Assembly: GCA_040876265.1 (NCBI GenBank)
Contig: JBBDPN010000002.1
Span: 170,510 to 234,509 of the forward strand
Reading direction: 5' to 3'
From: Candidatus Woykebacteria bacterium
GTDB lineage: Bacteria > Patescibacteriota > Microgenomatia > Woykebacterales > RBG-16-39-9b
Length of the DNA stretch: 64,000 bases
Shown here in pieces: positions 15,750 to 44,355 of this stretch (the stretch's first letter is position 1; each line of letters begins with the position of its first letter). The notes beneath the pieces were generated by a model. That model was not told the origin of the DNA. It saw only the letters and a program-made list of their open reading frames with translations, and did not search any database. The translations under genes were made by a program, and so were the position numbers.

Positions 15750-16793
15750 ATGGATCAGAATACTTTACTGTTTATTTTAATAGCCGTGGTGGTGGTTGGT
15801 TTTATCTTTCTGTTTCGGCAATTCCAGTCTATCAAAGAAGAAAAGGACAAGGATAAATCTAGTGAGGTTCTCATGAAATGGCTAGAGGAAATGAGAACCA
15901 GTGTCGATAAAAGTACCGAGACTATGCAACGCAGACTCGATGCGACGAACAAAGCGATTAATGAAAGGTTGGACAATGCCGCTCGGGTCATTGCCGGGGT
16001 TGGCAAAGAAGTAGGGGCCATGAGTGAAATTGGACGTAGCATGAAAGACTTGCAGGACTTTCTGCGTAGTCCAAAACTGAGAGGTAATATCGGCGAGCAA
16101 GTGCTGAAAGAACTGCTAGGCCAGTTTTTACCAAAGGAAAGTTTTCACCTCCAGTACCGATTTCGCAGCGGAGAAATTGTTGACGCGGCGATAAAGACAG
16201 AGAGCGGCATTATTCCGATCGACTCAAAATTTCCGATGGAAAATTTTAAACAAATGATGAAAGCCGAAGGTGAAGCGGAGAAAAAGGTTTATGAAAAAGA
16301 GTTTGGCCGAGATGTAAAGAAACATATTGACGATATCTCTAAGAAATATATTTTACCCGAAGAAGGCACGATCGATTACGCTCTGATGTACGTGCCTAGC
16401 GAACCTGTTTACTATGAAATTATGAGTAATATGCCTGAACTCTCTGATTACGCCCACAAAAAGCGAGTATTGCCGGTTTCTCCATCCACTTTTTACGCTT
16501 ATATGCGGGCGATTTTGATGAGTTTTGAAGGAAAAAAGATAGAGGAACGCGCTCGCGCTATCCTCGCCGCCCTTCGCGGTATAAAGGGAGACAGTGAAAA
16601 ATTTGGCGACGCTTTGCGTGTTCTCACCAAACATATTAACGATACAAAAAACACTAGCGACTTAGTCAACTCTCGCTACATTTCTCTACACTCCAAAATC
16701 GACACCGCCGGAAGTTTAAAAAGCGCTGACAAAAAAGCCCTCGAAGAACCACTAGCAGTAGAAGAAGTCGAAGAGATTACGGAAGAAACTTAG
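15750..16793 (+). CDS. rmuC: DNA recombination protein RmuC
   Basis: N-terminal TM, long coiled-coil, and the RmuC C-terminal region (IDSKFPMENF ... YALMYVPSE). Confidence 0.8.
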   Translation: MDQNTLLFILIAVVVVGFIFLFRQFQSIKEEKDKDKSSEVLMKWLEEMRTSVDKSTETMQRRLDATNKAINERLDNAARVIAGVGKEVGAMSEIGRSMKDLQDFLRSPKLRGNIGEQVLKELLGQFLPKESFHLQYRFRSGEIVDAAIKTESGIIPIDSKFPMENFKQMMKAEGEAEKKVYEKEFGRDVKKHIDDISKKYILPEEGTIDYALMYVPSEPVYYEIMSNMPELSDYAHKKRVLPVSPSTFYAYMRAILMSFEGKKIEERARAILAALRGIKGDSEKFGDALRVLTKHINDTKNTSDLVNSRYISLHSKIDTAGSLKSADKKALEEPLAVEEVEEITEET

Positions 16794-16806: not shown

Positions 16807-17049
16807 ATGGTTATAGAACAAGATGGGTTCGCAACCATCGAAGGTACCAGAGTGAGAGTCAAGGATATTGCGGACCAGTATCAGCGCGGCCTTGATGAGA
16901 TAGTTGCAGAGAAGCTGCAGGACTATTTCCCGCACCGGAGCATAGAGTAGATCCAAGCCGCAATTTCCTACTGGCGTGAGAACTCGGAGAAGATCGACGA
17001 GGAAATCCGCGCCGAAAAGGAAGTCTTTTTGGAAGCGTCGAAAGGATAG
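16807..17049 (+). pseudogene. DUF433-family (antitoxin-like) gene with in-frame TAG at 16948-16950
   Basis: The N-terminal 47 codons (IEGTRVRV...DYFPHRSIE) and the downstream in-frame segment (IQAAISYWREN...) together match the DUF433 consensus (GTRIPV ... YPxLTxEDIxAALxYA). The TAG sits at the conserved D/E position. A GGAGGAGAG ribosome-binding site lies 5 nt upstream. Confidence 0.5.
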
Positions 17050-17076
17050 CGGGAAGAACCTAGAAGGGAGATCAAT

Positions 17077-17310
17077 ATGGAGTGGCAGGACTGGCTCGTA
17101 TGGGGCGTTCTTGCTACCTGGCTTGGTGGAGGGTTGGTGTACTTTGCTCACTTGACTCACCAAATTCGGGCCGAGACAGGGAAGTGGCTCCACCCAACCG
17201 AACCTGGAGCCCAGATCCTCACCATCCTCATATGGTGGGTGATACTAGCGGGACGCTTTGCTTCGTGGATAGGAGGAGTGATGAAACGAAGGAATGGGGA
17301 GGTCTTGTAA
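17077..17310 (+). CDS. small hypothetical membrane protein (2 TM), G+C-rich islet
   Basis: 77-aa ORF with a GGGAG ribosome-binding site 7 nt upstream. Followed by an intrinsic terminator (ACGCCG...CGGCGT + T6) at about 17326-17364. Confidence 0.35.
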   Translation: MEWQDWLVWGVLATWLGGGLVYFAHLTHQIRAETGKWLHPTEPGAQILTILIWWVILAGRFASWIGGVMKRRNGEVL

Positions 17311-17514
17311 TCCAACCGCGCAACGACCGCCCTTAACGCCGACTCACACGAGCCGGCGTCTTTTTTGGAAACGGGTCGTTTCTCTTTTCCTTCGACTTCG
17401 CTCTCTTCGAGCCTGAGCGATGAGGCTCAAGCCTCAGAGCCGAAGGCAGGACAAGTTTCCGCAGTTTCCTCTCATCTTGACGCACAAATAATATTGGTGT
17501 ATGTTATATACACC

Positions 17515-17802
17515 ATGAAAAGGACCCAGCTTTATTTACCGGAAAAAACTTTGAAAATTTTGAAAAAAGAGGCGGCCGAGACTAAAAGGAGCGTTTCCGA
17601 AATCGTACGGGAAACTCTAGATGAAAGATTAAGAGAAAGTAGAGGCAACCCGGCTAGATTTTTAGTTGATATGGCCTTGCGAGCCGAACGGCTTGGCTAC
17701 AGCGGTCCAGTCGATTTAGCTGAAAAACACGATGAGTACCTTTATGGTAAAAAATCTCCTAAATGGGGTTATCTCTACAAAAATAAAAAGAAGAAAAAAT
17801 GA
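17515..17802 (+). CDS. vapB: ribbon-helix-helix (CopG/VapB-like) antitoxin with lysine-rich tail
   Basis: MKRTQLYLPEKTLKILKKEAAETKRSVSEIVRETL is a classic RHH N-terminus. Its stop overlaps the PIN gene start (ATGA). Confidence 0.6.
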   Translation: MKRTQLYLPEKTLKILKKEAAETKRSVSEIVRETLDERLRESRGNPARFLVDMALRAERLGYSGPVDLAEKHDEYLYGKKSPKWGYLYKNKKKKK

Positions 17803-18194
17803 TTTTTGTAGACACCAGTGCTTTTGTAGCTTTAAATAACCCTAAAGACCCACATCACAAAAAATCACTTCAAGTAAGTTTAAATCTAGAAAAAGAATCA
17901 GCGCCCTTTTTTACCACGAACTACATTTTGGCAGAAAGCTATACTGTAATAAGCCAAAAAGTTGACAAAGAAGCCAGCGTTTATTTTAGAGAGAATTTGG
18001 ATTTAAGGATTCGTATTGTTAGAGTGGGTGAAAGTTTAGAAGAGACTGCTTGGGAAATTTTTAAAGAAACACGCTCAAAAAATGTTTCCTACGTAGACTG
18101 TACTTCTTTTGCGGCGATGAAGGCTTTTAATATCAAGCGGGCCTTTGCCTTCGACGATGATTTTAAAAGAGCCGGATTTTCTTTATTGACGTAA
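17799..18194 (+). CDS. vapC: PIN-domain toxin VapC
   Basis: MIFVDTSAFVAL start and conserved acidic residues of PIN domains. 131 aa. Confidence 0.7.
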   Translation: MIFVDTSAFVALNNPKDPHHKKSLQVSLNLEKESAPFFTTNYILAESYTVISQKVDKEASVYFRENLDLRIRIVRVGESLEETAWEIFKETRSKNVSYVDCTSFAAMKAFNIKRAFAFDDDFKRAGFSLLT

Positions 18195-18257
18195 CCGTAG
18201 AATCCTTACCCTCGAAGAACCCGAAGAAATCACCGAGGAGTAACGACACACTATAGG

Positions 18258-18286
18258 TTGACATTCGAACCTATTTCCTGTATAAT
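18258..18286 (+). promoter_or_regulatory. perfect consensus sigma70 promoter TTGACA-N17-TATAAT
   Basis: TTGACA at 18258-18263. Exact 17-nt spacer. TATAAT at 18281-18286. About 40 nt upstream of the next ORF and its ribosome-binding site. Confidence 0.5.
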
Positions 18287-18328
18287 TCCCATCATCAAAT
18301 TAGCTAAATAACCTTGAAAGGATAGAGA

Positions 18329-18592
18329 ATGTTCGACGAACCACGTCAAGGGAGCATCGTCGGAAAAGTACTAAATGTACTCCTCGACCACATTGATGAG
18401 TTCGTGACGGAGGATCATATCTTAACAGAGGCTAGCCTCTGGGAGGAACACCTCCATCCGAACTTTCAGCGACAGCGTGTAGTCGCTGCGATGACTACCC
18501 TGCGGGGCAGGTACCGCTGGAAGATCGACACGAAGCGTAGTGGTGAGTACCCGAGCGAGGGTAACACCGCCTACCGACTACCTACACAGTAA
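18329..18592 (+). CDS. hypothetical small protein (ORFan), G+C-rich islet
   Basis: 87-aa ORF. AAGGA ribosome-binding site. Codon usage is clearly G+C-richer than the flanking genes. Confidence 0.4.
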   Translation: MFDEPRQGSIVGKVLNVLLDHIDEFVTEDHILTEASLWEEHLHPNFQRQRVVAAMTTLRGRYRWKIDTKRSGEYPSEGNTAYRLPTQ

Positions 18593-18606
18593 GGAGGGAA
18601 ACTGTC

Positions 18607-18903
18607 ATGCCGTGCAACAACAGGACCGTTCAGGAAGTGGTGGAGGAATGGTTGCGACAAGCAAGTCGAAGCCTCGAAAACCAGCTTCCTTGGAAGAGAG
18701 AGGAACTGCTGGTAGAGGCGATACGGGAGTCACTCGGTGATCCTCGCCTAGCTTTTGCCACTAGAGTCGGGGGAAAGCTGGTCATCCCGCCACCGCACTC
18801 GATACCGGTCCCGCAAGAAATGGAGAGACGCCGCCTCATTTTGAGGATGGCGTTGACTCTGCTCACGGAGATGGAATTACTCCGTTATCAAAACCAACCC
18901 TAG
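18607..18903 (+). CDS. hypothetical small protein (ORFan), G+C-rich islet
   Basis: 98-aa ORF. AAGGAGGG ribosome-binding site 6 nt upstream. Followed by a hairpin (GAAACGACC ... GGTCGTTT) with a T-run at about 18990-19045. Confidence 0.4.
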   Translation: MPCNNRTVQEVVEEWLRQASRSLENQLPWKREELLVEAIRESLGDPRLAFATRVGGKLVIPPPHSIPVPQEMERRRLILRMALTLLTEMELLRYQNQP

Positions 18904-19083
18904 GGCGAGCGTTGAAGATGCTGGAAACAGCGATGCCACGACCCCTAGGAGCTCCTAAGTAAATCAAGGGATTGATTTTCTTAGGAGGAGAAACGACCCC
19001 GTGTAGTCTTGTATGAAGTGGTGGTCGTTTTTCTTTTTCCTTCACTTCGCTCAGGATAAGTTATCTGGTAAAATGGTTTATCC

Positions 19084-22038
19084 ATGAGTAAAGTACTAGA
19101 GGGTTTGAACAAACAGCAAAAAGATGCAGTAATGACGACGGAAGGACCATTACTGATAATCGCTGGAGCTGGGACTGGAAAAACCACCGCCATTACCCGC
19201 CGCATCGCTTACCTTATTGAGCAAAAATTGGCTAAACCATCAGAAATTCTCGCACTCACCTTTACCGAAAAAGCAGCCGGAGAGATGGAAGAAAGGGTCG
19301 ATATTCTGGTTCCCTATGGTTACATTGACACTTGGATCTCTACATTTCACTCTTTTGGCAACCGCGTCTTGCAAGAAAACGCTATAGATCTAGGTCTATC
19401 CCCGGACTTTAAAGTCCTCACCCGCCCATCCCAAATTCTTTTTTTCCAACAAAACCTTTTTGCTTTTGATCCCTCTTATTATCGGCCACTTAGCAATCCA
19501 ACGAAGTTTATCGAAGCGATTTTGCAATTCATCAGTCGCTGTAAGGATGAAGACATTTCACCGGCAGACTACAAAAAATATGTCAGAAAATTGAAAAAAA
19601 CTACTCCAAGGAAACTTGGTTTAACGAAGAAGGAATGGGAGACCGAGGTCAAACGACAGGAAGAACTTGCTAATGTCTACGAAAAGTACGAGAAACTAAA
19701 AACAAATGCTGGACTTGTGGATTTTGGCGATCAGATTACTTTGACACTTAGACTTTTTCGCGAAAAACCAGGGGTTCTCAGAAAATACCAAAAACAATTT
19801 AAATACGTCCTTGTGGACGAATTCCAGGACACCAACTGGGCTCAGGACGAACTCGTCAAATTACTGGTAGAACCAAAGGATAATATCTGTGTGGTGGCAG
19901 ATGACGACCAGAGTATTTACCGTTTTCGCGGCGCGGCCATCAGCAACGTGCTGGAGTTTAAAAAGACTTACCCAAAAGCAAAAATAGTTACTCTGCTGGA
20001 AAACTTTCGCTCCGGGCAACCGATTCTCGACTCCGCCTACCGTCTGATTCGTCATAACGATCCAGATAGGCTTGAAGTACGTGAAAAAATTGATAAAAAA
20101 TTAAAATCAGTAAAAAAGAATCCGCCGGCTGGTGGATCTGGCCCGCCAAAAGAAATTTATGCTGAGACTCTTAGCGTTGAGGCTGATGCTATCGCAAAGA
20201 AAATTAAAGATTTAACAAAAAGGGAGAAGCTGGCCTACAAAGATATCGCAATTTTAGTGCGGGCAAATGCCCACGCCGATCCCTTTTTGCGAGCTCTCAA
20301 CATGAAAGGAATTCCCCACAAATTTGTTGGCAGTAGCGGCCTATACGCCCAGGAAGAAGTGAAGCTTTTAATCTCTTTCTTAACTGCAATTTCCAATTTC
20401 GACGATTCGCCAAACCTTTACAACCTTGCTTCGAGTGAAATTTATAAATTGCCTCTGAAAGACGCGATCGCGGTGATGGATTGGGCAAAAAGAAAAAGCA
20501 AGACCCTCCGTTATGTCCTCACCAAAATTGACGATCTAGAAGAGATCGAGCTAGGTGCGGAGGCGAAAGAGATAATTAAAAAGATAAACAGCGATTTAGA
20601 TTCTCTCGTTGATTTGTCCCGTAAAGAACCAGTCGGCCGGGCGCTCTATGAATTTTTGAAGAGAACTGGGTTCTTATCGCGGCTTGAACAAAAAGGCAAC
20701 GTGGAGGCGGAGATAAAGATCCAAAATATTGCCAGGTTTTTCGATAAAATCCGCGAATTTTCCGAGATTGCCCAAAATGAATCGGTGCGCGCCTTTACCG
20801 ATTGGCTCGCGGTTATGAGAGGTGCGGGAGACGACCCCGCAACTAGCGAATTTGATCCGGACACGAATGCAGTAAATATCATGACTGTTCACTCTGCCAA
20901 GGGTTTGGAATTCCCAGTGGTTTTTCTGGTGAATTTGGTTTCAGACAGGTTTCCCTCAAGAGAGAGGAGAGACGTTATTGCTATTCCGGCCGAACTAATA
21001 AAAGAAACACTTCCGGCTGGGGACTTTCACATGCAGGAGGAAAGAAGACTTTTTTACGTGGGTATGACGCGGGCGATGGATCATTTGTTTCTGACCTGGT
21101 CGCGTGATATTGGCGGAAAAAGGACCAAGAAAGTTTCTCCTTTTGTTCTTGAGGCACTGGATAAAACAGTCAGCAGTGCTCTGGTGGAAAAAACGAGCGC
21201 GCTAGAAAAAATCCACCGTCACGCTGGCCATACAGCCTCGGCTAGCAACCTACCTCAAGCAGGCGTAAAAGTAATTAAACTTACTCAAGGAGCAGTTGAT
21301 GATTACCAAACGTGCGCTTATAAGTATCGCTACGTTCATGTTTTGAGACTGCCTATTCTTCGTCACCACGCTGTGGTTTACGGAGCCGCGCTCCACATCG
21401 CTGTGGCCGCTTTTTACCGGGCCAAAATGGCTGGTAAAAAAATGCCACTCGCAGCACTCCTAGCAATTTTTGAAAAAGCCTGGACTGGCGAAGGCTTTCT
21501 TTCACAAGAGCATGAGGAGAGAAGATTAGCACAAGGGAAAAAGATCTTGGCTGATTTTTGGAGACGTGAAAAAGATAAAAAACAAAAACCCACCTTTATT
21601 GAAAAGGATTTTCGTTTCAGCGTCGGCGGAACTATTGTTACCGGTAGGTTCGATCGGGTGGATGTCGGCAGAAAAAAGGTGAAAATAATTGATTTCAAAA
21701 GTACTGAGGGCAGAAGCAAGGAAGAGATAGAAAAAAACGCCAAAGAAAGTATCCAACTTCGCGTCTATGCGTTGGCTTATTACAAAAATAGTAATCCGCC
21801 GGTAGTTCCAGATTTTGTCGGCATTTACGATCTTGATAGCGGAGTAGTGGGTGGTTACAAACCTACAAAGAAACATCTTGAAAAAACAGAAGAAGAGATC
21901 AAAGAAACTGCAAAAGGAATTAAAAATAATCTACAAGAGGACAATTTCCCAGCCAACCCAAAATACTTTGGTAGAGTCCCGGCGTGTTATTACTGTGCAT
22001 ACAATAGTATTTGCCCTTTCTCTTTAGTTAGAAGATAA
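19084..22038 (+). CDS. UvrD-family superfamily-1 helicase fused to a C-terminal RecB/Cas4-like PD-(D/E)XK nuclease with Fe-S cysteines
   Basis: Walker A GAGTGKTT. UvrD motifs (VDEFQDTN, TVHSAKGLEFP). C-terminal GRFDRVD ... IIDFKSTEG ... QLRVYALA nuclease motifs. Cysteines C...CYYCAYNSIC. Confidence 0.8.
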   Translation: MSKVLEGLNKQQKDAVMTTEGPLLIIAGAGTGKTTAITRRIAYLIEQKLAKPSEILALTFTEKAAGEMEERVDILVPYGYIDTWISTFHSFGNRVLQENAIDLGLSPDFKVLTRPSQILFFQQNLFAFDPSYYRPLSNPTKFIEAILQFISRCKDEDISPADYKKYVRKLKKTTPRKLGLTKKEWETEVKRQEELANVYEKYEKLKTNAGLVDFGDQITLTLRLFREKPGVLRKYQKQFKYVLVDEFQDTNWAQDELVKLLVEPKDNICVVADDDQSIYRFRGAAISNVLEFKKTYPKAKIVTLLENFRSGQPILDSAYRLIRHNDPDRLEVREKIDKKLKSVKKNPPAGGSGPPKEIYAETLSVEADAIAKKIKDLTKREKLAYKDIAILVRANAHADPFLRALNMKGIPHKFVGSSGLYAQEEVKLLISFLTAISNFDDSPNLYNLASSEIYKLPLKDAIAVMDWAKRKSKTLRYVLTKIDDLEEIELGAEAKEIIKKINSDLDSLVDLSRKEPVGRALYEFLKRTGFLSRLEQKGNVEAEIKIQNIARFFDKIREFSEIAQNESVRAFTDWLAVMRGAGDDPATSEFDPDTNAVNIMTVHSAKGLEFPVVFLVNLVSDRFPSRERRDVIAIPAELIKETLPAGDFHMQEERRLFYVGMTRAMDHLFLTWSRDIGGKRTKKVSPFVLEALDKTVSSALVEKTSALEKIHRHAGHTASASNLPQAGVKVIKLTQGAVDDYQTCAYKYRYVHVLRLPILRHHAVVYGAALHIAVAAFYRAKMAGKKMPLAALLAIFEKAWTGEGFLSQEHEERRLAQGKKILADFWRREKDKKQKPTFIEKDFRFSVGGTIVTGRFDRVDVGRKKVKIIDFKSTEGRSKEEIEKNAKESIQLRVYALAYYKNSNPPVVPDFVGIYDLDSGVVGGYKPTKKHLEKTEEEIKETAKGIKNNLQEDNFPANPKYFGRVPACYYCAYNSICPFSLVRR

Positions 22039-22140
22039 AACTTGACTTAGCTAGGCAGAAGTTGCCTAGCGCAGGATACGTGAATACTCGAGAAATTAAG
22101 GAGCCCGCAAATTTCGAGCGTATGTAGTATCCTATAGGAT

Positions 22141-22169
22141 TTGACTTTAAGCCTATTTTGTGATATTAT
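22141..22169 (+). promoter_or_regulatory. near-consensus sigma70 promoter TTGACT-N17-(TGa)TATTAT
   Basis: TTGACT at 22141-22146. 17-nt spacer. Extended -10 TGATATTAT at 22161-22169. Confidence 0.4.
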
Positions 22170-22384
22170 ATACCCGTAATTAAATAATACCACTGCCAGC
22201 TTCCTGAGAAAAAATTCTCGCGAAGTAGCCAGCAGAATGCAGGAAATCACGAAAGACACAATCTTGAGCGACGAAGCGCATTCTTTTTTTGTAGGGTTAA
22301 ATCTGATTACTACAGGTTGTTAGTTTCAACCCCGCAACTTGAAAAGTAGAGTCTTGTGTTGGCCCTTAGTAAAGGAGGCGTTTT

Positions 22385-22822: not shown

Positions 22823-23035
22823 GAACCAAATACCTGCCAGGGGGAGTACTGATATTAGCGAAAGCCAATCAGTCTGGTAACCAACAACCTCCCTCCGCTT
22901 CGCAAGTCGTCAAGGACTTGCTCAGGAAATAAAAGGAGGTGAAAACCATATTCCTGGGCAGCTCCTTGGCAAGATGCCAAAGCGGACTATCTCACCCGTT
23001 AGTGAGGTGACAGTTACCCTAAGGAGGGATATCGA

Positions 23036-23413
23036 ATGGTAGACAGCAACATGTATGGTTGCGCTCTCGGAATCTGCGATGTTCTGGGTGCACCCCAGGA
23101 CACCTATACGTTCCGGGGTGACAACGACCCCTCGCCTCTGCTCTGGGTGGTCGTGGACCTGGACAGCAATAGGGATCCACTCAAGCGGCAGTACAAAACC
23201 TTGTGTTGCCATCACAGGGGTAAGGCAGCCAAGGCGCTCGAGAGTAAGGGTCGCAGCGTCACAGTGATGCCTTTGCACGCCTTCCTCGAGAAGCGCGCGG
23301 AGTTCGAAGCCGAAGCGCAGGCCAAGCGGGATCAGGAAGAAGCCGAGGCTGCAGCCTTCGAGGACCTTTGGAACACTCCTACCGCAGAGGCACCGGCCGT
23401 TACGACCGTGTAG
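23036..23413 (+). CDS. hypothetical Cys-containing protein (ORFan), G+C-rich islet
   Basis: 125-aa ORF. TAAGGAGGG ribosome-binding site 7 nt upstream. Confidence 0.4.
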   Translation: MVDSNMYGCALGICDVLGAPQDTYTFRGDNDPSPLLWVVVDLDSNRDPLKRQYKTLCCHHRGKAAKALESKGRSVTVMPLHAFLEKRAEFEAEAQAKRDQEEAEAAAFEDLWNTPTAEAPAVTTV

Positions 23414-23645
23414 CCCCAGCCAAACCAAGCGACCATCTCCAAATCACTCAGAAAAGAGACACCCGTGATTGGTGAGCACGGTTAACGTGCAGTGATTAAC
23501 CGCTCGAGGAATGAATGAGCGGAAAATAAAGATCAGGGAGGTACTGGCCTATAACATATAGGAAGTCTGGTTGGAAGAAGTCGAACTTCTCAAAAAACCT
23601 CCCCAACCTTTCTTACAACCGCCAAAATAGGTGGTTTTTCTTTGG

Positions 23646-24533
23646 TCAAAAAAAGCGAGACGGGAAAAAGAGTATTTTTGACCAAAGCTTGGGGTACTTC
23701 ACGAAAGAGCCAATATATTCCACCTCTTCCCCGCCAAACCCCCGTTTAAAAAGAGTAAAGCCTTTCCAATTTCTGGTTGAGTGGATGCGAGGGTCGTGAA
23801 TGCCTTCAAGATCGAGCGTCTTGCAGCCTTTTTTCTTTAAGAATCGCATCGCTTCCCACAAAAGTAGATATGGAGCCATCACGTCGCGATGTCCTTCTAC
23901 GGAAGCCGCGTGTTGATAGTACCCAGCTTTTTCTGAGAACAATAGTAAAGAAGAAGCGAGAGCCTCATTATTGTAATAAGCAGTAAGTATCGCGGCCGAG
24001 CCGCCTTTGTGAAAAATTTTCCAGAGAACCTCTATTTCCTTTTTTGCCGGCCAAAACCCCTTTCTTTTTGCAGTTGCGTAGTAAAGAGTTTTAAACTCTT
24101 CAATATCATCAGTTTGCTTTACCATTACTCCTCGACGCTGTGCTAAACGTACATTGTAGCGAGTGTCTTTTTCCATATTTCTGAGGAGCTCATCTTCACT
24201 TTTGGTAAGGTCAATTTTTATAGTTCGGGTGGGTGAGAGCGGCCAACGATCGCCTCTAAAACCACTATTTTCAATTAGGGATAAAATATTATCGAGCTTG
24301 GATTGTTTGGTTTCTATGGCGGGTTCTAGCTTAACGAAAAAAACATTGTTTTCTTTCACTACAGCGTCAATTTGTTTCAGAGGTAGAGGTAAAGGGACTC
24401 TAGGTATCTTTACTATTGTTCCCATGACAGGGATCTTTTTGGAGTAAGCAAATGAAGTTGGAGTCAGAGGGTGTGTTTGCCAACCAAGTTCCTCCAGGTA
24501 TTTCGCCCACAAACTGCTTTGCCGAATGTCCAC
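23646..24533 (-). CDS. FemAB-family peptidoglycan interpeptide-bridge aminoacyltransferase (GNAT fold)
   Basis: TRYNVRLAQRRG, YLLLWEAMRFLKKKGCKTLDLEG and FKRGFGGEEVEY motifs match the FemAB family. Confidence 0.6.
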   Translation of the reverse strand: MDIRQSSLWAKYLEELGWQTHPLTPTSFAYSKKIPVMGTIVKIPRVPLPLPLKQIDAVVKENNVFFVKLEPAIETKQSKLDNILSLIENSGFRGDRWPLSPTRTIKIDLTKSEDELLRNMEKDTRYNVRLAQRRGVMVKQTDDIEEFKTLYYATAKRKGFWPAKKEIEVLWKIFHKGGSAAILTAYYNNEALASSLLLFSEKAGYYQHAASVEGHRDVMAPYLLLWEAMRFLKKKGCKTLDLEGIHDPRIHSTRNWKGFTLFKRGFGGEEVEYIGSFVKYPKLWSKILFFPSRFF

Positions 24534-43123: not shown

Positions 43124-43143
43124 ATAAGGCGAGGAATGAAAGA

Positions 43144-43196
43144 GGCGCAGAGTCGCTCGCGAGCGTCTTCGGAGAGACTCTGCGCCCCTGGTTTTC
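43144..43196 (+). terminator. intrinsic terminator after dnaJ
   Basis: 11-bp stem GGCGCAGAGTC/GACTCTGCGCC (43144-43154 and 43176-43186) enclosing the palindrome GCTCGCGAGC. Followed by GGTTTT. Confidence 0.5.
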
Positions 43197-44188
43197 CCGC
43201 GGACCTCATCGATAGAAACGGCAGTCAGCCATGGAGGTTCTACCGAGGGAGGCGTTGATCAAGCAGAGTCTTTGGCCTTACGTCGACCTGCAATGTCCAA
43301 AGGATCTGCCAGAGAGTTTTTGCCTCGCGAGCTAGCGCCAAGCTCTAGCGAAACAGATGTTAACGAAAACTCTTTGCCCACGATCCCACAACACATCCCT
43401 CTCCTACTGCGGCATTTGCCGATGAGGACGTGCAGGCAAATAGTAGTGGGGTATTTTACATGTTTGGGAAGTAAATGTCAAAATATATTGATAAGACTTT
43501 CGAAATTGGTAATAGAAAAGTTGAAGGCGCATCAAAGAGGATATTACACCTCACTGATGCGCCTACTCGATTGCTGACGCTTTCCAGGCCGCCCCAACCC
43601 GAAAAGCGTCATATCCACCATTGGCGGCGGACTAGAAGGAGGTCGCCCGATACTTTCCAGTTAAGGAGCACCGGTTTGATTTCCTAAGGGGTATAAGGAA
43701 AGATTCCAAGATACCCCGGTTGATTTCAGACGCTCCTGAGTCTGAGTGATTGCTCGCCAGGGGGTGCGGCGGTGAGACAGAGGAGCGTCGAACCACGACA
43801 GTTGCGGCTTCTGTCGAGGCCAAATTTAAGCCAATCGGTCAAAGAGTTTGAGCTGTTGCGACCGATCGGGTCTGCTCTATTGTCAGGCAGCAGACCATTC
43901 CTACTAGCAGGGTATTAGGCGTTGTCGAAGATTGCTAAATTGCCTAATCCGTGCTCGTACCGCTGGTATATAAAAGATAAGTGCTGAAGCTGAGTGTAAA
44001 CTCCAGTTGGCCCGGGCGGGAGGGGGATGCCCATAAACTGGAAGCCGTACCCAGCATATTACAAACCTCTGCTCGAGTAAATCGAACAGAAGTCAGCTAC
44101 CCCTTCCTCGTTTCTTCACCTTAACTTAACCACTTTTTTGCTTGATTGTCAATATATGTTTGTCGGTCAAGATTTTTCGCCTAGTTAC

Positions 44189-44224
44189 TTGATGCCCCAA
44201 CGCACTAAGTGCTTGGGGCATCAA
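44189..44224. promoter_or_regulatory. 36-bp near-perfect palindrome TTGATGCCCCAA-CGCACTAAGTGC-TTGGGGCATCAA upstream of nusA
   Basis: 12-bp perfect arms with a spacer that is itself palindromic. Could form a 16-bp hairpin or act as an operator. Confidence 0.4.
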
Positions 44225-44355
44225 CCCTTTCGTAGTCTTTAGCGAAGGAGGGTTGACCAAAGCGCGCTAATTATTTATTATTGGTACACTAAAATTTATT
44301 AACTTTTTAAAAGTGGGATAAACTCCCACTTTCTTAGGTTGAGGAGGTCAAAAAC

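What the first reader, a model, noticed from the sequence alone, without database searches (positions are those of the whole stretch)
18200..19060. G+C-rich two-gene ORFan islet driven by a textbook TTGACA-N17-TATAAT promoter
A perfect consensus sigma70 promoter (18258-18286) is unusual, because exact consensus promoters are typically selected against except in phages or very highly expressed loci. It precedes two small genes (87 and 98 aa) with strong ribosome-binding sites. Their codon composition is visibly G+C-richer than the roughly 40% G+C host genes, and they have no recognisable domains. The first has a possible winged-helix flavour. The unit ends with a hairpin plus T-run terminator. 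Together with vapBC and the DUF433 remnant it fills the rmuC-helicase gap, so it is likely horizontally acquired, possibly from a high-G+C partner organism or phage. A two-gene unit under a maximal promoter is a pattern seen for toxin-antitoxin or anti-defence cassettes.
Basis: partly seen in the sequence, partly recalled or inferred. Interest (0 to 1): 0.55.

Follow-up and report, generated by a model that had tools for sequence, protein, structure and literature searches.

The report
Modular ORFan expression cassette in recombination hotspot
The flagged islet is a real self-contained unit (strong promoter, two small unknown genes, terminator) in a Candidatus Woykebacteria genome, and it is one copy of a small family of cassettes with conserved ends and unrelated G+C-rich cargo that sit at different sites in several related genomes; what the two proteins do is unknown.

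Summary
A 12/12 sigma-70 promoter lies at 18258-18286. Two ORFs follow (87 and 98 aa). Both have atypical composition (GC3 0.61-0.62 against a host value of 0.40 +/- 0.05) and in-frame codon periodicity. The unit ends in a double hairpin with a T-run. Neither protein has a homologue or a recognisable domain.

The interpretation needs revising. The RmuC-helicase gap is a variable hotspot. It is empty in one relative and holds different G+C-rich, Shine-Dalgarno-led small ORFs in the others. A leftover RmuC 3' end (18203-18244) and a duplicated terminator piece (17367-17457) flank the unit. These point to recombination with DNA from a relative, not import from a high-G+C organism or a phage.

The terminator belongs to a conserved ~75-95-nt 3' module. 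The module recurs at 88-93% identity at other loci in at least three other genomes. In each case it lies behind a TTGAC(A/T)-N17-TATAAT promoter and unrelated, G+C-rich, strongly folded ORFan cargo.

G+C richness is not a sign of recent arrival: a neighbouring G+C-rich gene is syntenic in three genomes and keeps GC3 at 0.71-0.73.

Function is unresolved. A toxin-antitoxin role, an anti-defence role and a winged-helix fold are all untested or unsupported.

The parts
18203..18244 (+). Remnant of an RmuC 3' end (reads ILTLEEPEEITEE*), marking the left junction of the unit
   Evidence: It aligns with the RmuC 3' ends of six sister genomes. The consensus pattern matches only the real RmuC tail (16758-16786) and this site in 64 kb, with 0 expected.
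18253..18274 (.). Inverted repeat ATAGG-N12-CCTAT bracketing the -35 box; a possible operator or a shared promoter-module motif
   Evidence: There are only two matches in the window, and both are on islet promoters (18253-18274 and 22134-22156). BLAST does not find the similarity significant, so this is suggestive only.
18258..18286 (+). Sigma-70 promoter TTGACA-N17-TATAAT (12/12)
   Evidence: The same perfect architecture is present in the cassette copies L005 3272-3300, L005 11592-11620 and L087 5661-5689.
18293..18328 (+). Inferred ~35-nt unstructured 5' leader with ribosome-binding site GAAAGGA (18316-18322)
   Evidence: The transcription start is inferred from the -10 position. The leader fold is no better than shuffles (z = +0.7). 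This contrasts with host genes, where a -10-like hexamer ends 4-14 nt before the start codon in 24 of 51 ORFs.
18329..18592 (+). ORF1: 87 aa, pI 6.1, soluble, ORFan
   Evidence: GC1/2/3 is 0.61/0.39/0.61, and the periodicity test gives p = 0.002. There is no Pfam, PHROG, PADLOC, NCBIfam or PDB hit. Only itself is found among 5.8e9 clusters. Full HMMER over 1.84e9 representatives gives itself plus one spurious tandem-repeat protein.
18590..18597 (+). Ribosome-binding site TAAGGAGG for ORF2, overlapping the ORF1 stop codon
   Evidence: 6/6 match to AGGAGG, 9-nt spacer.
18607..18903 (+). ORF2: 98 aa, pI 8.0, predicted helical with a proline-rich linker, ORFan
   Evidence: GC1/2/3 is 0.63/0.40/0.62, p = 0.002, in a different frame from ORF1; the combined test gives p = 4e-6. 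No family or PDB hit. Only itself among 5.8e9 clusters. No relative in viral or metagenome contigs.
18952..18987 (+). First 3'-UTR hairpin (16-nt arms, 94% complementary)
   Evidence: It is partly conserved with the L089 copy.
18975..19069 (+). Conserved 3' module: TTAGGAGGAGAAACGACC, a variable loop, then GGTCGTTTTTCTTTTTCCTTCACTTCGCTCAGGATAAGTT. It includes the intrinsic terminator (arms 18988-18998 / 19023-19033, T-run 19028-19038).
   Evidence: Homologous copies: W 17367-17457; L005 3903-3970; L087/L088; L089/L090. Identity is 88-93%.
17367..17457 (+). Second, truncated copy of the 3' module (right half only, with a 44-nt insertion), lying between the TM77 terminator and vapBC
   Evidence: It is 92% identical to L005 3920-3956. 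The same module-then-vapBC order is seen in L087/L088.
17515..18194 (+). vapB (RHH) and vapC (PIN) with host-like composition, lying between the two module copies
   Evidence: Pfam hits. GC 0.36-0.40 and codon index 0.83. Homologues at 47% and 40% identity lie directly after the module in L087/L088.
19066..19074 (+). Extended -10 (TGGTAAAAT) of the helicase gene, 9 nt before its ATG. This is the right-hand core boundary and is conserved in the sister genomes.
   Evidence: Alignment.

Best explanation
Window 18203-19069 is an accessory, self-contained expression cassette in a Candidatus Woykebacteria (CPR, Candidate Phyla Radiation) genome. Its parts, in order, are: a consensus sigma-70 promoter; a short leader with a ribosome-binding site; two adjacent small protein genes; and a double hairpin ending in an intrinsic terminator.

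Shown:
- It is one copy of a modular family. The family shares a strong TTGAC(A/T)-N17-TATAAT promoter and a conserved ~75-95-nt 3' hairpin/terminator module.
- Between these ends lies unrelated, G+C-rich, Shine-Dalgarno-led cargo that matches no Pfam family, on transcripts that fold far better than shuffled controls.
- The cassette lies in the RmuC-helicase gap, which is a gene-content hotspot in this lineage.

Inferred:
- It arrived, or was rearranged, by recombination with DNA from a relative that carried RmuC-cassette-helicase. The event left an RmuC-tail stub on the left and a duplicated module on the right.
- The conserved ends act as portable homology or as a recombination site that lets cargo be exchanged.
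- The two proteins are a fast-evolving pair. ORF1 may be a small DNA-binding regulator acting on the inverted repeat around its own -35 box. Their role is of the conflict or accessory type (toxin-antitoxin-like, defence or anti-defence).

The biochemical function is not established.
For: Anatomy.

Coding: three-base G+C periodicity is in phase with each ORF although the two use different frames (combined p = 4e-6), and is absent from the flanks.

Foreign-looking signals:
- GC3 and codon index.
- Ribosome-binding sites: 5 of 6 islet ORFs score at least 5/6, against 4 of 51 host ORFs (Fisher p = 1.7e-4).

Hotspot:
- The MetRS-TM-RmuC-[gap]-helicase-[gap]-FemAB synteny is conserved, while the RmuC-helicase gap (gap1) is 20-4200 bp long.
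- Gap1 is 37 bp in L086.
- It holds different small G+C-rich ORFs in L003, L004, L005, L006, L028 and L085.
- None is homologous to ORF1 or ORF2.

Junctions: RmuC-tail remnant; duplicated module.

Family:
- 3' module copies are at non-homologous loci. L005: TatD-MetRS gap. L087/88: in front of vapBC. L089/90: in front of a 506-aa gene.
- They are 88-93% identical, against 66-76% nucleotide identity for core genes between W and its sisters.
- Cargo in each copy is G+C-rich (GC3 0.68-0.74 in L087 and L089) and has no Pfam hit.
- Perfect or 11/12 promoters occur at four of the five copies; W islet c is 10/12.
- Whole-transcript fold z-scores are -5.3 (W islet b), -7.6 (L087), -5.5 (L089) and -7.7 (L005). 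Host controls give -2.4 to +1.7.
Against: - Only five independent module copies are in hand, so 'family' rests on a small sample.
- No recombinase or transposase has been linked to the cassettes, and no target-site duplication or clear terminal repeats were found. The AACTTGnC / GnCAAGTT ends are too short to be convincing.
- The left (promoter) module of islet b resembles the others only through short motifs, which BLAST does not find significant.
- The order of recombination events cannot be reconstructed without closer relatives, and none exist in the databases.
- Nothing bears directly on protein function. The structure models are poor (pLDDT 59 and 51) and fold searches are empty.
- Whole-transcript z-scores may be inflated by mixed composition. 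ORF-only values are smaller (-3.3 to -3.5 for ORF1 and ORF2; -0.9 to -2.9 for the other cargo).
Confidence: 0.6

Rival explanations
1. Recent horizontal import, with its own promoter, from a high-G+C organism or a phage.
For: Composition and codon use are far from host values. The ribosome-binding sites are unlike those of host genes. Both genes are ORFans.
Against: - No similarity to phage, plasmid or viral sequences at DNA or protein level.
- The promoter and leader are A+T-rich and of host type.
- The unit is flanked by an RmuC stub and by a 3' module whose only other copies are in low-G+C genomes (about 38-45% G+C at the loci held); L005 is a Woykebacteria-like relative, while L087-L090 are unclassified.
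- Small ORFs in the RmuC-helicase and helicase-FemAB gaps are G+C-rich across the whole clade.
- The syntenic C125 family keeps GC3 at 0.71-0.73 in three diverged genomes. G+C richness therefore does not date a transfer.
Confidence: 0.1
2. A type II toxin-antitoxin-like or regulator-effector pair. ORF1 would be a small DNA-binding antitoxin or regulator that autoregulates through the inverted repeat over the -35 box, and ORF2 would be the toxin or effector.
For: - Two small adjacent genes 14 nt apart, with the ORF2 ribosome-binding site overlapping the ORF1 stop codon.
- A mildly acidic upstream protein and a neutral-to-basic downstream protein.
- An inverted repeat bracketing the -35 box.
- Location in a variable hotspot next to vapBC.
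Against: - No hit to any toxin, antitoxin or defence model.
- No helix-turn-helix or ribbon-helix-helix signature detected.
- The structure models are uninformative.
- Other cassettes in the family carry single ORFs or membrane peptides, so a two-gene logic is not a family feature.
Confidence: 0.15
3. The islet is mainly a structured non-coding RNA, and the ORFs arise by chance in G+C-rich sequence.
For: Fold z-scores are -2.2 to -4.2 in every 300-nt window across 18300-19200 on both strands, and -5.25 for the whole transcript. Other module-bearing cassettes are equally structured. G+C-rich intergenic islands in A+T-rich genomes are a classic non-coding RNA signature (general knowledge).
Against: - Codon-position periodicity is in phase with both ORFs despite the frame change, and is absent from the UTRs.
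- Ribosome-binding sites are correctly spaced.
- All four alternative frames in each ORF are closed.
- No Rfam match.
- No homologues are available to test covariation.
- Structure and coding can coexist.
Confidence: 0.08
4. A resident, rapidly evolving or de novo lineage-specific gene pair, not acquired at all. Homologues would be undetectable only because small proteins at this locus evolve quickly.
For: The neighbouring C125 family has 71% amino-acid identity but 62-71% identity at four-fold sites. The adjacent helicase has 77-79% and 35-38%. This implies a high dN/dS. TM77 retains only a marginal match to the L003 ORF.
Against: - L086 has an empty gap, and L085 and L003 carry different cargo.
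- The RmuC stub and the duplicated module show that a rearrangement or insertion took place.
- The module occurs at unrelated loci in other genomes.
Confidence: 0.12
5. Assembly chimera that joins reads from a G+C-richer organism into the contig.
For: The source is a single metagenome sample (SRR27977662).
Against: - The NCBI MAG contig (302 kb) and the Logan contig (36 kb) give the same arrangement.
- The boundaries fall at biologically sensible signals.
- The junction modules recur in independent assemblies of other genomes.
Confidence: 0.02

Closest known systems
Minimal mobile elements (MMEs) of Neisseria: variable cassettes between conserved flanking genes, exchanged by transformation and homologous recombination (definition quoted in PMC3787668)
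   Same: Gene content differs among relatives between the same conserved flanking genes (RmuC and the helicase). One relative has an empty site. No dedicated mobility gene lies inside the cassette. Junction remnants are consistent with recombination.
   Different: Here the cassettes also carry their own conserved ends (a promoter module and a 3' hairpin module), and these recur at non-homologous loci. MMEs are not defined by that. Transformation in Woykebacteria is assumed, not shown.
Phage 'morons' (autonomous promoter-gene-terminator units of deviant composition; general knowledge)
   Same: Own sigma-70 promoter, own factor-independent terminator, composition unlike the surroundings, and insertion between two unrelated genes.
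   Different: The cassette is not in a prophage. No phage genes were recognised nearby, and there are no matches in phage or viral collections.
Integron gene cassettes with attC sites
   Same: Variable ORF cargo followed by a conserved imperfect hairpin whose loop length varies between copies (3 to 35 nt).
   Different: These cassettes have their own promoters. They are solitary and not in arrays. No IntI was recognised among the genes with precomputed Pfam annotation in the 13-kb stretch. The GTTRRRY / RYYYAAC core sites are absent from the module ends (read).
IS200/IS605-type palindrome-associated elements and promoter- or terminator-bearing MITEs (for example Correia elements; general knowledge)
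   Same: Short conserved ends with subterminal hairpins, no transposase inside, scattered in intergenic regions, and able to supply promoters or terminators.
   Different: Cargo of 300-700 nt of unrelated coding sequence lies between the ends. No Y1 transposase was identified, no target motif is defined, and only a weak 6-8-nt terminal inverted repeat is present.
Type II toxin-antitoxin operons
   Same: Two small adjacent genes, a palindrome at the promoter, and a hotspot location next to a genuine vapBC.
   Different: No sequence or structural similarity to any toxin or antitoxin family.

Membership tests
Minimal mobile element / recombination-hotspot cassette | Conserved flanking genes with different gene content between them in close relatives | tested here: met
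   RmuC and helicase are syntenic in more than 30 loci. Gap length is 20-4200 bp, the cargo is non-homologous, and L086 has a 37-bp empty gap.
Minimal mobile element / recombination-hotspot cassette | The identical cassette occurs in a distant relative at the same site, showing exchange via the flanks | tested here: not met
   No second copy of ORF1/ORF2 exists anywhere. Only the RmuC stub hints at a donor with the same flanks.
Phage moron | Autonomous promoter and terminator with deviant composition | tested here: met
Phage moron | Located within a prophage genome | tested here: not met
   The neighbours are RmuC, vapBC, the helicase and FemAB. There are no PHROG hits and no matches in phage or viral collections.
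Integron cassette | attC with RYYYAAC...GTTRRRY core sites | tested here: not met
   The module ends read ...CAGGATAAGTTATCT and TTTAGGAGGA.... No GTTRRRY is present in any of the five copies (alignment).
Integron cassette | Adjacent intI integrase and attI; promoterless cassettes in an array | tested here: not met
   No integrase domain appears among the genes with precomputed Pfam annotation in the 13-kb stretch. The cassette has its own promoter. The rest of the genome was not examined.
Type II toxin-antitoxin | Recognisable toxin fold and an antitoxin DNA-binding domain | tested here: not met
   No Pfam, NCBIfam or PADLOC hit at E <= 1 to 10. Foldseek found nothing at E <= 0.001, on low-confidence models.
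Type II toxin-antitoxin | Toxicity of one product that is neutralised by the other | not testable with these tools
   Needs expression experiments.
IS200/IS605-type non-autonomous element | Subterminal hairpins at both ends recognised by a Y1 (HUH) transposase, with insertion 3' of a fixed short motif | tested here: inconclusive
   A 3' hairpin is present in all copies. A 5' hairpin (AGCTAGGCA...TGCCTAGC) is seen only in W islet c and L005. No transposase was searched for genome-wide, and no shared target motif is visible.
Winged-helix DNA-binding protein (ORF1) | Helix-turn-helix plus a beta-hairpin wing, detectable by profile or by fold | tested here: inconclusive
   No profile hit. The model shows three helices and no strands, at pLDDT 59. 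The fold search was empty. A single-sequence model cannot exclude the fold.

The most novel reading that the evidence does not exclude
Woykebacteria and related CPR bacteria may carry a previously undescribed class of small mobile expression cassettes.

Each cassette would consist of a consensus promoter module, a fast-evolving G+C-rich ORFan cargo on a highly structured mRNA, and a conserved 3' hairpin module with a variable loop and a fixed tail (...CCTTCGACTTCGCTCAGGATAAGTT).

The 3' module would serve as the site at which cassettes are moved or swapped between loci and genomes. This could happen through an unidentified hairpin-recognising recombinase, or through transformation with homology-facilitated recombination.

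It would be a promoter-bearing, solitary counterpart of integron cassettes in ultra-small bacteria.
Probability: 0.25. Interest if true: 0.75.

Novelty: new variant of a known kind. Interest (0 to 1): 0.55.

Why it matters
CPR bacteria have tiny genomes and few recognised mobile elements, and how they gain and turn over accessory genes is poorly understood.

If these cassettes really are a mobile family, the conserved ends give a concrete sequence handle: a ~75-nt module that can be searched for. That search would allow three things:
- cataloguing the cargo pool;
- finding the machinery that moves the cassettes;
- asking why the cargo is kept G+C-rich, Shine-Dalgarno-led and heavily folded in genomes that otherwise use A+T-rich, mostly leaderless genes.

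There is also a methodological point. In this lineage, deviant G+C content is a stable property of a class of small genes, so it should not be read as a timestamp of horizontal transfer.

If the pattern turns out to be no more than a shared terminator, the finding reduces to an ordinary strain-specific pair of hypothetical genes.

Tried and rejected
- Homology. Pfam, PHROGs, PADLOC, NCBIfam and PDB sequence searches gave nothing for ORF1 or ORF2. The 5.8e9-cluster search returned only the proteins themselves.
- Full HMMER for ORF1. It returned one extra hit, P0003. This is a 10x tandem-repeat protein whose score is the sum of weak repeated matches, and I rejected it as spurious.
- Relaxed phmmer against all six-frame ORFs of 80 syntenic loci. 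Nothing for ORF1, ORF2 or C145.
- Viral, metagenome, phage and plasmid searches for the proteins and the DNA. All empty. A Bacillus-phage PRPP synthetase hit at E = 0.4 was ignored.
- Single-sequence AlphaFold2 models. Too poor to use (pLDDT 59 and 51), and Foldseek against the PDB gave only E > 2.
- Rfam. No family in the islet. A ctRNA_p42d 'hit' on the terminator at E = 3.7 was dismissed.
- Idea that promoters b and c are paralogous. Only short shared motifs (CTATAGG, CCTATTT), not significant by BLAST. Kept as a note only.
- Idea that 4-bp inverted repeats around the -35 box covary across sister genomes. Judged to be within chance; not pursued.
- Consensus RNA structure for the conserved gap2 leader. 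RNAalifold predicted no pairs.
- Idea that the module tail encodes a peptide (GSFFFSFD.AQDK). There is no in-frame start codon in the L089 copy; dropped.
- Exact-protein look-ups for RmuC and VapC, to find strain variants. Only the same sample was found.
- Taxonomy of the metagenome contigs L087-L090. It could not be established.
Full report
Source. The two ORFs are annotated in NCBI as hypothetical proteins WD187_04020 and WD187_04025 of a Candidatus Woykebacteria MAG. The same arrangement is present in a Logan assembly of SRR27977662. 'W' below means the window. L-numbers are loci fetched from other genomes. 'gap1' is the RmuC-helicase gap and 'gap2' is the helicase-FemAB gap.

OBSERVATION.
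- TTGACA-N17-TATAAT lies at 18258-18286 and is the only 12/12 match in 64 kb.
- ORF1 (18329-18592, 87 aa) and ORF2 (18607-18903, 98 aa) follow. ORF2 has a TAAGGAGG ribosome-binding site that overlaps the ORF1 stop codon. The ORF1 site is only moderate (GAAAGGA).
- The unit ends in two hairpins. The second (arms 18988-18998 / 19023-19033) runs into TTTTTCTTTTT.
- G+C is 52-57% against about 41%.
- GC3 is 0.61 and 0.62 against 0.40 +/- 0.046 for 45 long ORFs.
- The codon index lies below every one of 500 host 90-codon samples.
- By contrast, vapBC has host-like composition.

ARE THEY GENES? Both ORFs show G+C periodicity of about 0.62/0.40/0.62 in their own frames, and the two frames differ. The combined test gives p = 4e-6. 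The flanking UTRs show no periodicity. All four alternative frames in each ORF are closed. I take them to be protein-coding.

They are strict ORFans:
- No hit in Pfam, PHROGs, PADLOC, NCBIfam or PDB sequences.
- Only themselves among 5.8 billion clusters.
- For ORF1, only itself plus a spurious tandem-repeat protein in an exhaustive HMMER search of 1.84 billion representatives.
- Single-sequence AlphaFold models are poor (pLDDT 59 and 51), and fold searches are empty.
- The 'winged-helix flavour' is therefore neither confirmed nor excluded.

HOST CONTRAST. Host genes here are mostly leaderless. In 24 of 51 long ORFs a TAnnnT hexamer ends 4-14 nt before the start codon. The helicase has a conserved TGnTAnAAT 9-10 nt before its ATG in all sister genomes. 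Only 4 of 51 host ORFs have a ribosome-binding site scoring at least 5/6. In the three G+C-rich islets around the helicase, 5 of 6 ORFs do (Fisher p = 1.7e-4).

Near-consensus promoters are common in the window: 6 sites with at most 1 mismatch against 0.3 expected. The perfect promoter is the top of a host-type distribution, not an alien signal.

LOCUS. The order MetRS / TM protein / RmuC / gap1 / UvrD-PD(D/E)XK helicase / gap2 / FemAB / second helicase is conserved across Woykebacteria, Curtissbacteria and beyond.
- Gap1 ranges from 20 to about 4200 bp.
- In one Woykebacterium (L086) it is 37 bp, which is an empty site.
- In L003, L004, L005, L006, L028, L034 and L085 it is G+C-rich (0.48-0.56, against 0.38-0.44 for the locus). 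It holds different small, Shine-Dalgarno-led ORFs, mostly membrane peptides. In L006 it holds fabD-, SDR- and lipB-like genes.
- None of this cargo resembles ORF1 or ORF2, even at relaxed thresholds.
- Only TM77 (17077-17310) has a weak counterpart, in L003.

But 'different G+C-rich genes at the same locus' is the rule.

JUNCTIONS.
- Directly upstream of the promoter, 18203-18244 reads ILTLEEPEEITEE*. It aligns with the 3' ends of RmuC genes of sister genomes. The consensus pattern matches only the true RmuC tail and this stub in the window.
- Downstream, the terminator and the 40 nt after it (18990-19069) are repeated at 17367-17457, between the TM77 terminator and vapBC.
- The order is therefore: RmuC; [DUF433 pseudogene, TM77, terminator]; half module; vapBC; RmuC stub; [promoter, ORF1, ORF2]; full module; helicase.
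- The TM77 terminator (17335-17365) matches the terminator that directly precedes the helicase promoter in L085 (sequence).
- I infer that 17366-19069 contains material added by recombination with DNA from a relative in which promoter-ORF1-ORF2-module occupied the RmuC-helicase gap. Which piece came first cannot be resolved.

A CASSETTE FAMILY. The 3' module is not unique to this locus. Its consensus is TTTAGGAGGAaAAaCGACC, a loop of 3-35 nt, then GGTCGTTTtTCTTTTCCTTCGACtTcGCTCAGGAtAAgtt.

A gapped pattern that fits the three known copies was scanned against JGI metagenomes. It found four more contigs, representing two distinct loci. It found none in viral contigs. The copies are:
- W islet b.
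- W 17367-17457 (right half only).
- L005 3903-3970, in the TatD-MetRS gap behind a 105-aa G+C-rich ORF.
- L087/L088, behind a 70-aa membrane ORF with GC3 0.68. This copy is immediately followed by vapBC homologues (47% and 40% identity), which is the same order as in W.
- L089/L090, behind a ~105-aa ORF with GC3 0.74 and in front of a 506-aa gene.

Module identity is 88-93%. Core genes of W and its sisters are 66-76% identical at the DNA level.

Each copy is driven by TTGAC(A/T)-N17-TATAAT. The match is 12/12 in W islet b, L005 (both its cassettes) and L087; 11/12 in L089; and 10/12 in W islet c. Across about 1.2 Mb of fetched loci plus the window I count eight distinct perfect promoters, and four belong to these cassettes.

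About 100 nt upstream of the W islet c promoter (22040-22145) is homologous to the L005 cassette (72% over 106 nt). This stretch includes a hairpin with one compensatory change.

A degenerate module tail (GACTTGCTCAGGAAATAA, about 22908-22930) lies where W-specific sequence (C145) gives way to sequence shared with L085 and L086.

None of eight cargo proteins from these and the sister gap cassettes has a Pfam domain. One 195-aa protein gave two marginal matches (E about 0.07-0.08, far below cut-off).

STRUCTURED TRANSCRIPTS. Fold z-scores against dinucleotide shuffles:
- -2.2 to -4.2 in all windows across 18300-19200, on both strands.
- -5.25 for the whole islet b transcript.
- -7.6, -5.5 and -7.7 for the L087, L089 and L005 cassette transcripts.
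- -4.2 for C145.
- Host genes, vapBC, TM77, C125 and the sister gap1 cassettes lie between -2.4 and +1.7.

ORF-only values are smaller (-3.5 and -3.3 for ORF1 and ORF2). Mixed composition may inflate the whole-transcript values. I record heavy folding as a family feature of unknown meaning. Candidate meanings are mRNA stability, translational control, or single-strand structure relevant to movement.

G+C IS NOT A CLOCK. C125 (23036-23413; G+C 0.60, GC3 0.71) has syntenic homologues in L085 and L086 at about 70% amino-acid identity, with GC3 of 0.72 and 0.73. Those two genomes have a helicase GC3 of 0.37-0.40.

Its four-fold sites are 62-71% identical. Those of the adjacent helicase are 35-38% identical, which is close to saturation. 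Yet the C125 protein is more diverged (71% against 77-79%).

So either this gene is exchanged among these genomes more recently than they split, or its synonymous sites are constrained. In either case it evolves fast at the protein level. This gives a plausible reason why ORF1 and ORF2 have no detectable relatives. It also shows that deviant G+C is a maintained property of small genes at this locus.

MECHANISM, WITH STATUS.
Shown:
- An autonomous unit.
- Coding signal.
- Accessory status.
- Hotspot location.
- Recombination scars.
- Conserved 3' module at unrelated loci in other genomes.

Inferred:
- The conserved ends let cassettes be moved or swapped. The route would be DNA uptake with homologous or homology-facilitated recombination, or an unidentified hairpin-recognising recombinase.
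- Transcription starts near 18293 and ends near 19038.
- ORF2 translation is coupled to ORF1 through the overlapping ribosome-binding site and stop codon.

Guessed:
- ORF1 is a small regulator acting on ATAGG-N12-CCTAT around its own -35 box (this motif occurs only at the two islet promoters).
- ORF2 is its partner.
- The pair belongs to the conflict or accessory class.

COMPARISON WITH KNOWN SYSTEMS.
- It works most like a Neisseria minimal mobile element (variable content between conserved flanking genes; definition in PMC3787668). In anatomy it resembles a phage moron, but it is not in a prophage.
- It resembles integron cassettes in having a 3' hairpin with a variable loop. It fails their defining features: no core sites, its own promoter, no array and no integrase nearby.
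- A non-autonomous IS200/IS605-like or MITE-like nature is possible but untested.
- Two text searches for transposable-element or leaderless-gene descriptions in CPR/Patescibacteria turned up nothing relevant. This is weak evidence of absence.

VERDICT. The high-G+C-donor or phage interpretation is not supported. The unit is best described as a strain-specific member of a small modular cassette family in a recombination hotspot, with unknown protein function. On present evidence it is a new variant of a known kind (hotspot accessory cassette). There is roughly a one-in-four chance that the conserved-ends architecture marks a mobile-element type that has not yet been described.

Noticed in passing
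window 22141-22384; L003 11517-, L004 11015-, L005 11592-, L006 11271-, L028 11017-, L086 9049-: The helicase-FemAB gap opens in all Woykebacteria loci with a conserved promoter (TTGAC-N17-TGnTATAnT). A 150-260-nt leader follows, containing an almost invariant block TTTTTGTAnnnnnnAAnnTnAnnnACTAnAGG. W 22271-22312 is 95% identical to L086. After the leader come different small Shine-Dalgarno-led ORFs. There is no Rfam hit, and RNAalifold predicted no consensus structure on a crude alignment.
   Followed up: partly
window 22905-23035 (upstream of C125), L085 9873-10000, L086 9878-10000: A ~130-nt leader is roughly 85% identical column by column across three genomes, higher than the C125 coding region it precedes (about 74-75% over the whole 22911-24530 stretch). 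It contains an 11-nt 'super' ribosome-binding site (AAAGGAGGTGA) with no start codon at normal spacing. It also holds a conserved 22-aa upstream ORF (MPKRTISPVSEVTVTLRRDIEW) whose stop codon overlaps the C125 start (ATGGTAG).
   Followed up: partly
window 23036-23413 (C125) and homologues L085 10001-10384, L086 10001-10381: This syntenic small gene keeps GC3 at 0.71-0.73 in genomes where the neighbouring helicase has GC3 of 0.37-0.42. Its four-fold sites are 62-71% identical, against 35-38% in the neighbouring helicase, although the protein is more diverged. The antisense frame is open in all three genomes, but codon-position conservation favours the sense frame.
   Followed up: yes
window 16807-17052: The 'DUF433 remnant' is a full-length DUF433-like reading frame (about 80 codons) interrupted by a single in-frame TAG at 16948-16950. 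It is either a recent pseudogene or a read-through candidate.
   Followed up: partly
whole window (e.g. 334, 19084, 27437, 53472, 57147): Host genes look largely leaderless. A -10-like hexamer, often with an upstream TG, ends 4-14 nt before the start codon in 24 of 51 long ORFs. Ribosome-binding sites are rare (4 of 51).
   Followed up: partly
window 43124-44355: A 1.2-kb stretch between dnaJ and nusA has no convincing ORF and about 45-54% G+C. A near-consensus promoter lies on the minus strand at 43453-43481. No Rfam family reaches its gathering score.
   Followed up: no
L006 4644-8001 (gap1 of Woykebacteria RBG_13_40_15): In this sister genome the same hotspot holds a 3.3-kb island at 55-58% G+C that encodes FabD-like, short-chain dehydrogenase-like and LipB-like proteins. 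So the hotspot can also take up metabolic genes of deviant composition.
   Followed up: no
L085 239-1645 (Woykebacteria RBG_16_43_9): A diversity-generating-retroelement-like pair (bAvd accessory protein plus reverse transcriptase) lies next to MetRS in this sister genome. It is absent from the window.
   Followed up: no
window 21009-21120: A sub-threshold Rfam match (39 bits against a gathering score of 65, E = 0.001) to n00280, a Clostridioides sRNA annotated inside a helicase gene. It most likely reflects conserved helicase coding sequence.
   Followed up: no
L027 5705-5733: A Curtissbacteria locus has a perfect TTGACA-N17-TATAAT directly after the RmuC stop codon, at the start of its own 4.2-kb gap. 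That gap is not G+C-rich.
   Followed up: no
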